Position numbers and translations under genes: made by a program. Positions 8,564 through 24,895 of a stretch of DNA of 64,000 bases are shown piece after piece; the stretch's first letter is position 1, and each line of letters opens with the position of its first letter. Origin of the DNA: a phage; sequence record PX393109.1; one strand, written 5' to 3'. Below the pieces are notes generated by a model that saw nothing but the letters and a program-made list of their open reading frames with translations, was not told where the DNA came from and ran no database searches.

Positions 8564-8599
8564 CCGCTCTTTTAGGGTGCTAAAAGGCTGTTAAAGTGT
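8564..8599 (+). promoter_or_regulatory. Conserved motif A copy (candidate phage promoter)
   Basis: ccgctcttttagggtgctaaaaggctgttaaagtgt; SD and ATG (8626) follow within 27 bp. Confidence 0.5.
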
Positions 8600-8625
8600 C
8601 AATCCAACCGTAAGGAATAACAAAG

Positions 8626-10569
8626 ATGGAAAAAGTCGCTGCTCTGATAGAGCAAATTAAGAATGCGGCTAATGCATATTATAATGGTGACCAGCCCATT
8701 ATTACGGACGAAGAGTTCGATGCTCTTACCGAGAAATTAGCTGAGCTGGATCCTACTAACCCACTCCTCACTACCCCAGGCTGGGGAGTAACCGAAGCTG
8801 CTGAACATCTGGCTAAGTGCCCACATGGTTCATTCGTGGGTGGTCTTGACCAGGTTAAGATCGGTGCTGTGGAAGAGGGATTTAACTTCCTCCATGGTCA
8901 CGAAGAAGTTAAGGGATTCGTCGCTTCGGCTAAACTGGACGGCATCTCGGTAGTTCTGTATTACGACTACGACGGTAACTTCGTCCGTGGCTTAACTCGT
9001 CACGACGGCGTCACTGGTCTGGACATCACGAAGAGTCTGGAGTGTGCCGAGTTTCCTCGCCAGGTTCCTAAAGGTATTAAAGAAGTCCGCTGCGAAATCG
9101 TTATTCCCGATGATAAGTTCGAGCGGATCAGCCACGAGTACAGTAACCAGCGTAATGCTGCTTCTGGTATTGCTCTGGCTAAATACAGTGATCCTGCATT
9201 AATGGAACTGCTGGATGTGGTTGCATATTCGGTAACTGCATTCTACGAGGATGTGGATCACGAGACATGGATGGATGACTACAACCAGCTGCTACTATGT
9301 TTAAGTAAGGCTGGGTTCAAAGTAGTTAAGTACTTCGTTCTTCCTGCTGGTTATGTCAATACTTGGCTAGTGGCTAACCCACCATCTAAGTTCCGCGAAG
9401 ATCCGGTCTGCAACTACCTGTTGGATGGCGTAGTTCTGGGATCTCTGAATGTTGACTGGGATGAGAATATGCTGGGCAAGAATACTGTCCACTATAAGAT
9501 CAAGTACCAATCAGCATTCTATGACACTACCGTGGTTAAGGTACACTGGGTAGTTAGTGGTTACGGCCGAGTCGTGCCTACTGTTGAGTTCGAGACGGTA
9601 GACATGAGTGGAGTTAATGTAACTTATGCATCCGGATGGAATGCTGAGTACATCAAGAGTGCTGGTATCGGACCTGGTGCTAAGATCAAGATCAGTCGCC
9701 GTAACGAGGTAATTCCTCATATCGAAGAAGTCGTGGAACCCGTCACTGCGGTAATTCCTGAATTCGTCGATGGGGTACGTACTTTCTGGGATGGCGTGCA
9801 TATTCGCATCAAGACTAAGTTAGACCCGATGGTTATTCGTACGATAATCCGTGACTTCGCTCCTAAGGGTCTCGGTGGGACGAATATCAACAAGTTTGCC
9901 GAGCAGGCTAAACTAGATGATGTTGCCATGTTGAACGATATCATCGAGACTGGTCCATCTCATCCAGTATTCAGTATGGTAGAGATGTACGATGGCCCTC
10001 TCCAGCTTACTCGTCAGTCCTTCTTCAATATGAAGGATCGTCCTATCTCTATGGACCACATGCTGACCTGTACCTGGACGGATGGCCTTGGTTATGCAAC
10101 AGGAGTGCGTATTGCCACTGCGGTGACTCGCGACCAGATGATTCGTGTATTGCGTAACAATAGCTTCCACGACATGGTTAATGACGGTATCCAGGTCAAT
10201 ACCGAGGACTACAAAATCTGTAAGGCAATCTATGATGCATGCATGGGTTCCGTAGCTAAGAAGATTGTAGAGAATCAGGAAGTAATCCTGAAGGTGCTGA
10301 ATCTTCCTCTGAACTGGGTGGCCTCTAAGGTAGAGGAACCGCTTCCGGAAGGAAAGTTCAAGATCTGCTTAACTGGTAAGCTTAGTAAGCCTCGTAGCGA
10401 ACTGGTTAACTCCTGGATCAAATATGGCGTAGTCGAAGTCGGTATCGGCGACGCAGAATATCTGGTATGCGATAAACCAAGTCAGTCCAGTAAGTTTAAG
10501 GCTGCCGAAGCTAAGGGTACCAAGATCGTTACCGAAGATCAATTCCGTAAAATCATTGGAGCTGAATAA
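8626..10569 (+). CDS. ligA: NAD-dependent DNA ligase
   Basis: N-terminal YYNGDQPIITDEEFDAL, KLDG adenylation motif, TRHDGVTGLDIT, and a C-terminal BRCT-like segment. Confidence 0.85.
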   Translation: MEKVAALIEQIKNAANAYYNGDQPIITDEEFDALTEKLAELDPTNPLLTTPGWGVTEAAEHLAKCPHGSFVGGLDQVKIGAVEEGFNFLHGHEEVKGFVASAKLDGISVVLYYDYDGNFVRGLTRHDGVTGLDITKSLECAEFPRQVPKGIKEVRCEIVIPDDKFERISHEYSNQRNAASGIALAKYSDPALMELLDVVAYSVTAFYEDVDHETWMDDYNQLLLCLSKAGFKVVKYFVLPAGYVNTWLVANPPSKFREDPVCNYLLDGVVLGSLNVDWDENMLGKNTVHYKIKYQSAFYDTTVVKVHWVVSGYGRVVPTVEFETVDMSGVNVTYASGWNAEYIKSAGIGPGAKIKISRRNEVIPHIEEVVEPVTAVIPEFVDGVRTFWDGVHIRIKTKLDPMVIRTIIRDFAPKGLGGTNINKFAEQAKLDDVAMLNDIIETGPSHPVFSMVEMYDGPLQLTRQSFFNMKDRPISMDHMLTCTWTDGLGYATGVRIATAVTRDQMIRVLRNNSFHDMVNDGIQVNTEDYKICKAIYDACMGSVAKKIVENQEVILKVLNLPLNWVASKVEEPLPEGKFKICLTGKLSKPRSELVNSWIKYGVVEVGIGDAEYLVCDKPSQSSKFKAAEAKGTKIVTEDQFRKIIGAE

Positions 10570-10823
10570 TGTCTGTAACTTTGGAACAGGTTAAAGATGC
10601 ACTGCGATCTGCAGTAGCTGACATCATGATGGTTGATATTCTGGAAGTAACTGAAACTACTACCGGTGAGCAGTTAGGTGCAGATTCTCTGGATGAAGTG
10701 GAGATCATCATGCGTGTTGAAGATGAACTGGGTATGGAAGACAGTATTCCAGACTTCGACTATGATAGCGACGATACTCTGGAGCAGGTGGCAGAAAAGA
10801 TCGTGGCAGTTCTGAACCAGTGA
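10569..10823 (+). CDS. acyl carrier protein-like
   Basis: 84-aa acidic protein with LGADSLDEVEIIMRVEDELG, matching the ACP phosphopantetheine-attachment motif. Confidence 0.65.
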   Translation: MSVTLEQVKDALRSAVADIMMVDILEVTETTTGEQLGADSLDEVEIIMRVEDELGMEDSIPDFDYDSDDTLEQVAEKIVAVLNQ

Positions 10824-10828
10824 TAAGC

Positions 10829-10856
10829 TATAGGACATCTTCGGGTGTCCTATGTC
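10829..10856 (+). promoter_or_regulatory. Conserved hairpin motif B copy
   Basis: ctataggaca-tcttcggg-tgtcctatg (8-bp stem, CUUCGG loop) between ACP stop and next start. Confidence 0.45.
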
Positions 10857-10877
10857 GGTATCATTGAGGATAAAATA

Positions 10878-23436: not shown

Positions 23437-23782
23437 AGATACTGGGATTCATGACGGACGCTGGGAAGATCGATATAACTCAGTACGACAGGAATTAGAC
23501 ACTACTAAGGCTAATCTGAGTAAGGCTAGAGTAGAGAATGCTGAAAACCGAGCTATGCATCATCGTATTATTCAGATGGCTATTGATGATGGCTGGACTG
23601 GTGATCATAATAGTAATGTTGAGGATGCAGTAAAATTCCTATCGGGTAGAGAGCGTAAAGTAACTACCCCTAAAATTCATTACACAGATCATATCACAAT
23701 AGGTAAGGCATCTCCAGTATATGATGCCGTTGAAGTAGATACATTATTAACCAGTCTAGGGTATACTGTGGATAAGGATTAA
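23429..23782 (+). CDS. hypothetical protein
   Basis: Start at MAEDTG inside track ORF 23312..23782. Confidence 0.45.
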   Translation: MAEDTGIHDGRWEDRYNSVRQELDTTKANLSKARVENAENRAMHHRIIQMAIDDGWTGDHNSNVEDAVKFLSGRERKVTTPKIHYTDHITIGKASPVYDAVEVDTLLTSLGYTVDKD

Positions 23783-23784
23783 TT

Positions 23785-23820
23785 CCGCCGTTTCTTACCC
23801 TCGAAAGGCTGTTAAATTGT
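23785..23820 (+). promoter_or_regulatory. Conserved motif A copy (candidate phage promoter; variant CCGCCGTTT)
   Basis: ccgccgtttcttaccctcgaaaggctgttaaattgt, then AAGGA and ATG (23847). Confidence 0.45.
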
Positions 23821-23846
23821 TGCACCTCAACTGATAAGGATAACCG

Positions 23847-24560
23847 ATGTCTACTAAGATGATGCCACACCATCTGGCTCCGAATAAACTGTTTAACCGA
23901 TTCCTGTCATATCACGACTCCTACCACTGCGCAATTGACATCGAGACCGAGTATCTCGATTTTAAAGAGCCTGGGGTAGTTCTATCTGTAGGTATGGTGA
24001 CGGTTGGTCCTGATCACTACTCCCACGTCTACTTCACTATTGATCGAGAAGAGTCGCTGGCTCTGGGTATGAAGTCTGACCCTAACGTAGTTGAATGGCT
24101 CAACACTCTCCCGAAACCCGTCCGTGATGCTGCATATGCTAATCCAGTATCTGTTGACGAAGCTCTGGATATCATCGAAGAGTACGTAGCTAAGGTACTA
24201 CAGGATCCTGGTTGCCAGATGTTGAACTTCATCGGTAACGCACCAGAGTTCGACCAGGGATTCCTGGATTGGTACTTTAAGGCTAAAGGACGTAAGACCC
24301 CGTTCCTACACTGGATGAATCGAGATTACCGCACTCTGGCTAGTCTGCAGCTGATCTCATTCGATGATCGTCGCATGATTAAAGAAGAACTGAGTAGCCA
24401 GCACGAGTCTATGTCTGATCACCATGCATTGTTCGATGCGATGCTGGAAGCTAAGACTTGGGTTCGCACCATCAATCGTGTAAAAGAGTTACAGGATCTG
24501 GAGCACGAGGTGAATACCATGATTGCTATGCAGGGTAACTCTGTGGAAGATGGAGAGTAA
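23847..24560 (+). CDS. DEDD-type 3'-5' exonuclease (DnaQ-like)
   Basis: AIDIETE (Exo I) and HHALFDA (Exo III, DEDDh) motifs. Confidence 0.65.
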   Translation: MSTKMMPHHLAPNKLFNRFLSYHDSYHCAIDIETEYLDFKEPGVVLSVGMVTVGPDHYSHVYFTIDREESLALGMKSDPNVVEWLNTLPKPVRDAAYANPVSVDEALDIIEEYVAKVLQDPGCQMLNFIGNAPEFDQGFLDWYFKAKGRKTPFLHWMNRDYRTLASLQLISFDDRRMIKEELSSQHESMSDHHALFDAMLEAKTWVRTINRVKELQDLEHEVNTMIAMQGNSVEDGE

Positions 24561-24873
24561 GCTTTGTCGGGTGGTTAATATACGTACCAATCCTAACTAC
24601 GATTTATATGTTGGGAGAGGTACTATATTCGGGAATAAGTGGAGCCATAAAGATTTACCTAACGCTATTAACGTAGGTTCCCGAACATTAGCCATCGCGA
24701 AATACAGACTATGGTTCCACCAGCAAGTAAAAGATGGCCACATAAGCATCTCCTACTTACGGACTCTTAAGGGTAAGACTTTAGGGTGCTCCTGCTTACC
24801 GTTACCATGTCATGCTCAAGTTATAGCTGACTTCGTTAATTCATTACCTGACGAAGATTCCGCTCTTTCGTAG
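24550..24873 (+). CDS. DUF4326-like protein
   Basis: VNIRTNPNYDLYVGRG...GNKWS resembles the DUF4326 N-terminal signature; start overlaps exonuclease end. Confidence 0.45.
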   Translation: MESKLCRVVNIRTNPNYDLYVGRGTIFGNKWSHKDLPNAINVGSRTLAIAKYRLWFHQQVKDGHISISYLRTLKGKTLGCSCLPLPCHAQVIADFVNSLPDEDSALS

Positions 24874-24895
24874 CCTCCAAAGGCTGTTAAACTGT
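24860..24895 (+). promoter_or_regulatory. Conserved motif A copy (candidate phage promoter)
   Basis: ccgctctttcgtagcctccaaaggctgttaaactgt; the 5' half overlaps the stop of the upstream gene. Confidence 0.5.

What the first reader, a model, noticed from the sequence alone, without database searches (positions are those of the whole stretch)
8564..24895. Seven-copy conserved intergenic motif, candidate phage-specific promoter
The motif CCGCTCTTT-(8-11 nt)-AAAGGCTGTTAAAsTGT recurs at about 8564, 14600, 19669, 21066, 23785 and 24860, with a core-only copy at 2826. Each copy begins within a few bp of an upstream stop codon and ends 15-45 bp before the next SD and ATG. This placement and the roughly 17-bp invariant core are what a promoter for a phage-encoded RNAP, or a terminator-promoter unit, would look like. 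It does not resemble sigma70 -35/-10 elements.
Basis: seen in the sequence. Interest (0 to 1): 0.75.

Follow-up and report, generated by a model that had tools for sequence, protein, structure and literature searches.

The report
Phage-specific early/middle gene promoter motif
A 36-base signal sits in front of early and middle gene groups of this E. coli phage, always pointing the same way, and is most likely the promoter used by the phage's own transcription machinery, which is unusual and unstudied.

Summary
Seven copies lie on the + strand, with 0.19 expected by chance. The motif is tighter than described: 36 bp with a fixed 10-nt spacer, CCGC[T/C][C/G]TTT-N10-AAAGGCTGTTAAAnTGT, followed by a purine-rich stretch (A at position 40 in 42 of 50 distinct copies).

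The window is a coliphage 93-96% identical to EP_H11 and vB_EcoM_IME392, which are predicted to carry hypermodified thymidine. Each of those genomes has about 25 copies. All are sense-oriented and intergenic in the replication/nucleotide-metabolism blocks. None lies in the structural block.

More distant relatives keep the core at orthologous sites. Acinetobacter phage Ab1-TPeters has a diverged version in the same register. RP13 and Vibrio phage 1.031.O have their own two-block motifs ending in TGT plus a G-rich run.

The phage encodes a catalytic, split beta' subunit. I found no beta and no sigma.

Best reading: a class-specific phage promoter, with transcription starting 1-4 nt after TGT. 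Which polymerase reads it is unresolved. The core also fits an extended -10 element (TGnTAnnnT), but Ab1 does not keep that pattern. There is no experimental 5'-end evidence. I rate it a new member of a known kind, of moderate interest.

The parts
2807..2842 (+). Motif copy 1 (CCGCCGTTTAATACGGTCCAAAGGCTGTTAACTTGG). The stop codon of ORF 2473-2817 lies inside it. The next ATG is at 2893.
   Evidence: PWM 43.6 bits; sequence
2828..2875 (+). Hairpin AGGCTGTTAAC(2828-2838)/GTTAACAGCCT(2855-2865) plus a T-run. Its 5' arm is the motif core. It would terminate read-through transcripts, but not transcripts that start after the core.
   Evidence: Read from the sequence. The same arrangement is conserved in EP_H11 at 32887 with a different loop.
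8564..8599 (+). Motif copy 2. It starts 2 nt after the stop of the Pol X-like gene (7788-8561) and ends 26 nt before the NAD-dependent DNA ligase gene (8626-10569).
   Evidence: PWM 46.0 bits; Pfam hits
14600..14635 (+). Motif copy 3. It starts 2 nt after the stop of ORF 13968-14597 and ends 16 nt before the ATG at 14652.
   Evidence: PWM 48.4 bits
19669..19704 (+). Motif copy 4. It starts 2 nt after the stop of ORF 19433-19666 and ends 74 nt before the ATG at 19779. A strong hairpin (TAGAGCA..TGCTCTA) lies in the leader.
   Evidence: PWM 49.8 bits; leader fold -14.5 kcal/mol, z -4.5
21066..21101 (+). Motif copy 5. It starts 1 nt after the stop of ORF 20831-21064 and ends 23 nt before the ATG at 21125.
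   Evidence: PWM 45.3 bits
23785..23820 (+). Motif copy 6 (CCGCCGTTT variant). It starts 2 nt after the stop of ORF 23312-23782 and ends 26 nt before the 3'-5' exonuclease-like gene (23847-24560).
   Evidence: PWM 46.2 bits; Pfam hit
24860..24895 (+). Motif copy 7. The stop codon of ORF 24523-24873 lies inside the spacer. The motif ends 16 nt before the ATG at 24912.
   Evidence: PWM 48.9 bits
1..1164 (+). 3' part of the gene for the N-terminal half of a phage beta' RNA polymerase subunit. It has the catalytic NMDVDGD motif in place of NADFDGD. This is a candidate component of the enzyme that reads the motif.
   Evidence: Pfam RNA_pol_Rpb1_2, E 1.3e-23; 31% identity to Salmonella RpoC residues 20-514
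28485..28524 (.). Hairpin with T/A runs on both sides at the convergent junction. It marks the end of the motif-bearing + strand block and of the - strand structural block.
   Evidence: Read from the sequence; ORF layout

Best explanation
The motif is the promoter of one transcription class of this phage: the early/middle genes for replication, nucleotide metabolism, DNA modification and small accessory proteins on the + strand.

Proposed mechanism (inferred, not shown): a phage-directed polymerase binds double-stranded DNA through two blocks held at a fixed distance.
- An invariant downstream block, AAAGGCTGTT(AA), lies about -20 to -9 from the proposed start. It carries most of the specificity.
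- A looser upstream block, CCGCTCTTT, lies about -39 to -31.
- The AT-rich TTAAAn stretch is where the DNA would melt.
- Transcription would start on a purine 1-4 nt after the TGT (motif positions 38-40, consensus cGGAG).

The reading enzyme most likely contains the phage's own split beta' subunit together with a specificity factor not yet identified. At copy 2807 the core doubles as the 5' arm of a terminator hairpin. Upstream transcripts would stop there and new ones would start.
For: Shown by computation:
- 7 copies in the window against 0.19 expected, all on the + strand.
- Fixed 36-bp geometry.
- EP_H11 has 24-25 copies and IME392 has 25, all in the orientation of the early/middle genes.
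- There are no copies in the 37-kb structural block. About 8 would be expected if copies were spread evenly (my arithmetic, not a tool result).
- Scores are bimodal: 22-50 bits for copies and 12 or less for noise, apart from one palindromic reverse hit at 18.2.
- Across 50 distinct copies, positions 20-29 and G35 are invariant, and A40 is present in 42 of 50.
- Copies sit just after stop codons and 14-110 nt before start codons. They occur at the head of the + block and upstream of the tRNA cluster.
- In several places a hairpin with a T-run precedes the motif, so the motif is separate from terminators.
- Relatives whose homologs of one query protein (EP_H11 23475-24926) are 79% and 58% identical (L137, L136) keep AAAAGGCTGTTAAnnTG exactly at orthologous intergenic sites, while the flanks and the upstream block drift.
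- Acinetobacter phage Ab1-TPeters (beta'N 39% identical) has at least 15 sense-oriented copies of CTGTyTCTTAA-N9-aAAr-CCTGTT-N4-TGT-cGGGG in the same 24-nt register.
- RP13 and Vibrio phage 1.031.O have their own two-block intergenic motifs ending in TGT plus G-rich sequence.
- Consensus sigma-70 promoters are depleted in window 1-20000: 25 found against 40.3 +/- 5.8 expected.
- The phage encodes a catalytic beta'.
- In the distant relative YerA41, RNAP subunits are early-expressed and virion-associated (PMC7354516).
- A review states that jumbo phages encoding multisubunit RNAPs carry a conserved motif upstream of their early operons (PMC7598289).
Against: - No transcript 5'-end or in vitro data exist for any phage of this group, so promoter function is inferred.
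- The beta' genes themselves lie downstream of a motif copy (EP_H11 22461). The reading enzyme must therefore already be present at infection, either virion-delivered or host-derived, or another promoter must fire first.
- No beta, sigma or single-subunit RNAP gene was detected, so the phage-encoded RNAP is incomplete on present evidence.
- In the coliphage copies the core fits a host-type extended -10 element.
- The spacer can form an imperfect hairpin with weak covariation at pairs 10:19 and 11:18 (p about 0.01, copies not independent). This leaves some room for an RNA-level role.
Confidence: 0.7

Rival explanations
1. The motif is a host sigma-70 promoter of the extended -10 type (TGnTAAAnT). 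The extra conserved blocks are bound by a phage activator or sigma-appropriation system, as in T4 middle promoters. Unmodified or only accessorised E. coli RNA polymerase reads it, and the phage beta' serves the late genes.
For: T26 G27 n T29 A30 .. T34 are invariant or nearly so, while positions 32-33 vary. That is the information profile of a -10 element. A40 lies 6 nt after T34, a normal start distance. This reading solves the bootstrapping problem, because the beta' genes sit behind a motif copy.
Against: There is no -35-like hexamer at 16-18 bp (one search lists none of the motif sites). Positions 20-25 (AAAGGC) are invariant, which sigma-70 does not require. The homologous Ab1-TPeters motif keeps CCTGTT and TGT but has TAnnnT in only about half of its copies. 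RP13 and Vibrio 1.031.O motifs have no -10-like hexamer. Sigma-70 consensus sites are depleted in the block.
Confidence: 0.15
2. The motif acts in RNA. It is a recognition site in polycistronic transcripts for a processing endonuclease or an RNA-binding regulator, possibly using the imperfect hairpin formed by positions 5-24.
For: The motif is orientation-specific and lies between cistrons. A CTTT/AAAG stem is possible in most copies, with weak covariation at two further pairs.
Against: The 3' arm and the following 12 nt are invariant while the 5' arm drifts. Some copies cannot form the stem at all (L136 2987, EP_H11 9545). The distance to the start codon varies from 14 to 110 nt. There is no Rfam match. 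A copy heads the whole + block at the divergent junction, where no upstream transcript is expected.
Confidence: 0.07
3. The motif is a DNA site for a non-initiating protein, such as a repressor or operator, a nucleoid or partition protein, or a modification or replication signal.
For: High information content and fixed two-block spacing fit a sequence-specific DNA-binding protein. The two blocks are a weak inverted repeat (CTTT..AAAG).
Against: A strict single orientation relative to the genes in 57 of 57 copies (window 7, EP_H11 25, IME392 25) is not expected for a symmetric operator or a structural site. The placement immediately upstream of leaders and the purine-rich downstream extension fit initiation.
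Confidence: 0.06
4. The motif is a transcription terminator for the phage polymerase.
For: It abuts stop codons. One window copy is part of a hairpin with a T-run.
Against: The motif has no U-tract and only a weak stem. Conventional hairpin/T-run terminators occur separately, sometimes just upstream of a copy. The first gene of the block has a copy upstream of it.
Confidence: 0.02

Closest known systems
T7-group phage promoters (single-subunit RNAP; about 23 bp; a specificity region, then an AT-rich melting region, then a G-rich start)
   Same: Many near-identical copies per genome, all sense-oriented in intergenic gaps. There is an invariant block upstream of an AT-rich stretch and a purine-rich start. 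Related phages have lineage-specific variants.
   Different: No single-subunit RNAP gene was detected. This motif is longer and in two blocks with a 10-nt variable spacer. It is confined to the early/middle genes rather than the middle/late genes.
Early promoters of jumbo phages with multisubunit RNAPs (phiKZ, AR9), read by a virion RNAP (review PMC7598289)
   Same: A conserved motif that can be found by sequence analysis alone upstream of early operons in a phage that encodes beta'-like proteins. The late genes have no obvious motif.
   Different: Those motifs are about 10 nt, AT-rich and centred near -10. This one is 36 bp with a G+C-containing invariant core. Jumbo phages have two sets of split beta and beta' genes. 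Here only one split beta', much closer to the bacterial protein (about 30% identity), is detectable.
T4 middle promoters (sigma-70 -10 element plus a MotA box at -30, read by host RNAP with AsiA/MotA)
   Same: A host-like -10 pattern (TAnnnT) combined with a phage-specific upstream block that replaces the -35. They serve the replication and nucleotide-metabolism genes of a phage with modified DNA.
   Different: The upstream block sequence and position differ. An extra invariant AAAGGC lies between the blocks. MotA/AsiA homologs were not looked for specifically. The -10 pattern is not conserved in the Acinetobacter relative.
AR9 non-virion RNAP late promoter (template strand 3'-UUGU-N6-AU-5', read by the sigma-like gp226)
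   Same: A short TGT/ACA-type element close to the start site in a phage with non-canonical thymidine or uracil DNA.
   Different: The strand, spacing and length differ. AR9 recognition needs deoxyuridine. No gp226-like protein was identified here.

Membership tests
Sigma-70 (-35/-10) promoter | A -10 hexamer TAnnnT, optionally preceded by TGn | tested here: met
   T26 G27 n T29 A30 n n n T34 is present in 47-50 of 50 distinct coliphage copies.
Sigma-70 (-35/-10) promoter | A TTGACA-like -35 hexamer 16-18 bp upstream | tested here: not met
   The positions that would hold it read CTTTTn or TCTTTT. None of the motif sites is among the 25 consensus matches, which are themselves depleted relative to shuffles.
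Sigma-70 (-35/-10) promoter | The -10 pattern is kept in homologous promoters of related phages | tested here: not met
   Ab1-TPeters copies keep CCTGTT..TGT, but about half lack TAnnnT. RP13 and Vibrio 1.031.O motifs lack it.
T7-like single-subunit RNAP promoter | The phage encodes a T7-like single-subunit RNA polymerase | tested here: not met
   No such Pfam hit appeared among the EP_H11 proteins scanned. One search displayed only the 25 best of 52 matched families, and a few tail-fibre ORFs were not scanned.
T7-like single-subunit RNAP promoter | One contiguous conserved block of about 23 bp spanning the start site | tested here: not met
   There are two blocks separated by a variable 10-nt spacer.
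Jumbo-phage virion-RNAP early promoter | A conserved motif upstream of early operons in a phage that encodes multisubunit-RNAP homologs | tested here: met
Jumbo-phage virion-RNAP early promoter | A short AT-rich motif near -10, and two sets of beta/beta' fragments (virion and non-virion) | tested here: not met
   The core is AAAGGCTGTT. Only one split beta' is found and no beta.
N4 virion-RNAP hairpin promoter | A perfect 5-7 bp stem with a 3-nt loop, read by a giant virion RNAP.
   The stem is imperfect, the loops are 4-8 nt and some copies are unpaired. No giant RNAP ORF is present.
Sigma-54 (-24/-12) promoter | GG and GC dinucleotides 10 nt apart | tested here: not met
   G23 G24 and T34 G35 are at the right spacing, but the -12 C is T in 38 of 50 copies. 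The Ab1 version has no GG.
Intrinsic terminator | A G+C-rich hairpin followed directly by a U-tract | tested here: not met
   The motif is not among the terminator-like hits on the + strand. Only copy 2807 gains a hairpin and T-run through extra downstream sequence.
Any promoter | Primary transcript 5' ends map just downstream | not testable with these tools
   No transcriptome or in vitro transcription data were found for this phage group.

The most novel reading that the evidence does not exclude
The motif is read by a hybrid polymerase in which the phage's split, bacterial-like beta' replaces the host beta' in the E. coli core. The host would supply beta, alpha and omega, and possibly sigma. 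The invariant AAAGGC-TGT block would then be contacted by phage-specific beta' and/or sigma-region surfaces, letting the enzyme select and transcribe thymidine-hypermodified phage DNA. This would explain three things: why only beta' is encoded, why it stays about 30% identical to bacterial beta', and why the promoter looks half host-like.
Probability: 0.15. Interest if true: 0.85.

Novelty: new member of a known kind. Interest (0 to 1): 0.5.

Why it matters
Phages of this group (EP_H11, IME392, Ab1-TPeters and, more distantly, RP13 and YerA41) carry hypermodified thymidine and are hard to sequence and study. Nothing is published on how they are transcribed.

A precise promoter consensus with a predicted start site gives three things. 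It provides a map of the early/middle transcription units. It provides a direct handle for biochemistry: pull down what binds the 36-mer, or test host against infected-cell polymerase. It also provides a test of whether a phage that encodes only beta' builds a hybrid polymerase.

For annotation, the motif separates operons and marks the gene class. As a concept it is ordinary, since class-specific phage promoters are well known.

Tried and rejected
- Hairpin or RNA-structure reading. Pairs 5-9 with 20-24 are possible mainly because both arms are conserved. Only pairs 10:19 and 11:18 show weak covariation, and several copies cannot pair. Rfam finds nothing in 1-30000 at E up to 1.
- Universal 5' leader hairpins. 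About 10 of 43 distinct coliphage leaders fold strongly, but the mean z-score is -0.24, so this is not a general feature. Such hairpins look common in Ab1 and Vibrio 1.031.O by eye only.
- Sigma-54 resemblance: rejected.
- IMG/VR scans. A 14-base core pattern gave only single chance hits. The 18-base two-block pattern gave none. This phage group appears to be absent from that collection.
- Search for the beta subunit. tblastn with Salmonella RpoB against EP_H11, Ab1, the RP13 locus and the Va2 locus found nothing credible. Four ORFs next to the beta' genes have no Pfam or PDB-sequence hits. All four also lack PHROG hits.
- Search for a sigma factor. A Pfam scan of 86 EP_H11 proteins showed no sigma family among the 25 best of 52 matched families. 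The genes between sheath and capsid have no sigma domain. The sigma-70-like protein of Vibrio phage 1.031.O has no homolog here by tblastn or hhalign.
- AlphaFold models of the 483-aa and 218-aa proteins next to the RNAP genes were low-confidence (pLDDT 53.6 and 48.6). Foldseek on the first gave nothing.
- Late-block motif search. No convincing shared element; only a weak AACTAG/TAGTCAGG recurrence.
- Literature. No paper in the library contains the core sequence or describes promoters of these phages.

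
Full report
**Observation**

The 17-nt core, allowing up to 3 mismatches, matches seven times in the window. All matches are on the + strand, at 2826, 8583, 14619, 19688, 21085, 23804 and 24879. Dinucleotide shuffles give 0.19 +/- 0.42. The two-part pattern gives five exact matches against none expected.

Every copy is a 36-mer, CCGC[T/C][C/G]TTT, then exactly 10 variable nt, then AAAGGCTGTTAA..TG. This includes the copy at 2826, which is a full copy with CCGCCGTTT. A weight matrix built from the seven copies scores them at 43.6-49.8 bits. Nothing else in the 64 kb scores above 11.8, and there is no copy on the - strand or in 28.5-64 kb. 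Five copies begin 1-2 nt after the stop codon of the upstream ORF, and two contain that stop codon. The next start codon follows 16-74 nt after the motif.

**What the window is**

The + strand block (1-28.5 kb) carries small ORFs together with several recognisable genes:
- a Pol X-like gene, an NAD-dependent ligase and a 3'-5' exonuclease-like gene;
- a glycosyltransferase-like gene, a NADAR-domain gene and an RNase H gene;
- by homology to the annotated genes of EP_H11 and IME392, a dUTPase and a dCTP deaminase.

The - strand block (28.5-64 kb) carries tail, baseplate, sheath and capsid genes.

The region is 92.6% identical to Escherichia phage EP_H11 (111 kb) and 95.6% identical to vB_EcoM_IME392 (116 kb). 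Two papers place these phages with YerA41, RP13 and SP-15 and predict thymidine-hypermodified DNA (PMC12686479 and bioRxiv 10.1101/2025.03.26.645540). I found a 5-hmdU DNA kinase domain in EP_H11, which fits that prediction.

The window opens inside the gene for the N-terminal half of a beta' RNA polymerase subunit, and the C-terminal half lies just upstream in EP_H11. The two pieces align to Salmonella RpoC residues 20-514 and 536-939 at 31% and 28% identity. They keep the zinc-finger cysteines and the catalytic aspartates, as NMDVDGD.

**Genome-wide distribution**

EP_H11 has 24-25 full copies and IME392 has 25. Every copy is in the orientation of the early/middle genes. None lies in the structural block of about 37 kb, where about 8 would be expected if copies were spread evenly.

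Copies precede the genes for topoisomerase, DNA polymerase, ligase, the thymidylate-synthase region and the helicases. One copy precedes the operon that contains the beta' genes. One precedes the first gene of the block at the divergent junction. One lies upstream of a three-tRNA cluster. In several places a conventional hairpin with a T-run lies a few nucleotides upstream of a copy, so the motif is not itself that terminator.

**Anatomy**

Across 50 distinct copies with flanks:
- C2, C4, T8, A20-T29 and G35 never vary.
- A30, A31 and T34 almost never vary.
- Positions 10-19 and 32-33 vary freely.
- The conservation extends downstream: purines at 38-39 and A at 40 in 42 of 50 copies.
- Two A residues are frequent at -3 and -2.

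The two blocks are a weak inverted repeat (CTTT..AAAG). Extra pairs 10:19 and 11:18 are slightly more frequent than in column shuffles (p about 0.01-0.02). The copies are not independent, the 5' arm drifts while the 3' arm is fixed, and some copies cannot pair at all. This pattern fits protein recognition of double-stranded DNA at a fixed spacing better than a structured RNA. Rfam finds nothing.

**Relatives**

The exact two-block pattern is absent from IMG/VR.

Homologs of the 483-aa protein encoded near the beta' genes (EP_H11 23475-24926) led to two Logan contigs, whose copies of that protein are 79% and 58% identical to it. At orthologous intergenic sites, upstream of the thymidylate kinase, DNA polymerase and other genes, the core AAAAGGCTGTTAAnnTG is intact. 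The upstream block decays to nnnnTCTTT or less, and the flanks differ.

Acinetobacter phage Ab1-TPeters has the same genome layout and its beta'N is 39% identical. It carries at least 15 sense-oriented intergenic copies of CTGTyTCTTAA-N9-aAAr-CCTGTT-N4-TGT-cGGGG. The upstream block begins exactly 24 nt before CTGTT, as in the coliphages.

Two further relatives have their own two-block motifs:
- RP13 has ACGACGCTAT-N10-GACCTTGTr-AG.
- Vibrio phage 1.031.O has AACCCCT-N4-GAGTyyT-N4-AACCCCTTTCTTTTGTGGGG.

All four versions end in TGT followed by a G-rich or purine-rich run. In Ab1 and the Vibrio phage that run often opens a hairpin. Each lineage therefore has its own two-block signal in front of the same kind of genes, with a shared 3' edge. 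This is the pattern expected of promoters that co-evolve with a phage-encoded recognition protein.

**Who reads it**

I could not settle this. In favour of phage machinery:
- the invariant positions go well beyond what sigma-70 needs;
- there is no -35 element;
- consensus sigma-70 sites are depleted in the block (25 against 40.3 +/- 5.8);
- the relatives' motifs are not host-like;
- the phage encodes a catalytic beta';
- in YerA41, RNAP subunits are early-expressed and were found in virions (PMC7354516).

In favour of host involvement:
- the coliphage core reads TGnTAnnnT, with exactly the variability profile of an extended -10 element, and A40 lies at a normal start distance;
- the beta' genes lie behind a motif copy, so something must read the motif before new beta' is made;
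- I found no beta subunit (tblastn with RpoB; Pfam, PHROG and PDB-sequence searches of the neighbouring ORFs), no sigma and no single-subunit polymerase.

Structure prediction of two conserved ORFs next to the RNAP genes gave low-confidence models that could not be used. The Vibrio relative does encode a protein annotated as sigma-70-like. That shows the bacterial-like beta' proteins of this wider group can coexist with sigma-type factors.

**Comparison with known systems**

The closest functional analogues are:
- T7-group promoters, which are also many identical sense-oriented copies with a specificity block, an AT-rich stretch and a purine start;
- the early promoters found by sequence analysis in jumbo phages with multisubunit polymerases (PMC7598289);
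- T4 middle promoters, which combine a host -10 with a phage-specific upstream box.

The motif is not a member of any of these by their defining features; see the membership table. No paper in the library describes it.

**Verdict**

The promoter interpretation is the best-supported reading, at about 0.7. The polymerase is unresolved and there is no experimental evidence.

As a kind of element it is ordinary, a new promoter consensus for an unstudied phage group. The context is what makes it worth following up: hypermodified DNA and a phage that seems to encode only beta'.

Noticed in passing
window 1-1164 (+); EP_H11 26582-28096 and 29676-31244: The phage encodes a catalytic beta' RNAP subunit split in two pieces, 28-31% identical to bacterial RpoC with DxDxD kept as NMDVDGD. 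No beta homolog is detectable in EP_H11 or Ab1-TPeters, nor in the roughly 41-kb loci examined from RP13 and Va2. Either the enzyme borrows the host beta or its own beta is extremely divergent.
   Followed up: partly
window 20300-20830 (+): A 531-nt ORF-free, G+C-rich stretch between two small genes. Its RNA fold is -185 kcal/mol with z = -3.64 against shuffles, and it has no Rfam match. The same unannotated gap exists in EP_H11 (50832-51362). It is a candidate structured non-coding RNA.
   Followed up: partly
window 2828-2875 (+); EP_H11 103439-103520: At two sites a 10-11 nt exact reverse complement of the motif core (GTTAACAGCC) lies 15-45 nt downstream and is followed by a T-run. This is too specific to be chance. 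It would make a terminator only in transcripts that read through the motif.
   Followed up: partly
window 28485-28524: A strong hairpin with A/T runs on both sides sits at the convergent junction of the two gene blocks. It is probably a bidirectional terminator.
   Followed up: no
window 62675-62823 (-): Upstream of the major capsid gene there is a hairpin with a T-run (GCTACGGCCTC..GAGGCCGTAGTTTTT), followed by TTGACA-N18-TAAATT. This is the best sigma-70-like site seen in the structural block. A short AACTAG/TAGTCAGG element also recurs upstream of a few late genes in EP_H11.
   Followed up: partly
window 3937-3954, 7059-7079, 11160-11179 (+): Three stable hairpins lie inside the + block: two with UUCG-type loops and one with a UAA loop. 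The first two are followed by T-rich runs and the third by a T-run. The genes after the last two have no motif copy, so another start signal or read-through must serve them. TATAAT at about 7122 and TAGATA-N18-TAGAAT at about 11119 are candidates.
   Followed up: no
EP_H11 99826-100672 (outside the window): Three tRNA genes (Gly-UCC, Arg-UCU, Met-CAU) lie in a stretch with few ORFs that is dense in motif copies, near the start of the early block.
   Followed up: no
EP_H11 23475-24926 (outside the window); Ab1-TPeters 25718-26938: A 483-aa protein encoded near the beta' genes has homologs only in this phage group. It is predicted to be almost entirely helical, but the model is poor (pLDDT 53.6). 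It is a possible candidate for a polymerase accessory or specificity subunit.
   Followed up: partly
L138 36461-37252 (Vibrio phage 1.031.O): This distant relative has an unsplit beta'-like gene and encodes a protein annotated as an RNA polymerase sigma-70-like domain protein. It has no detectable homolog in the coliphages.
   Followed up: partly
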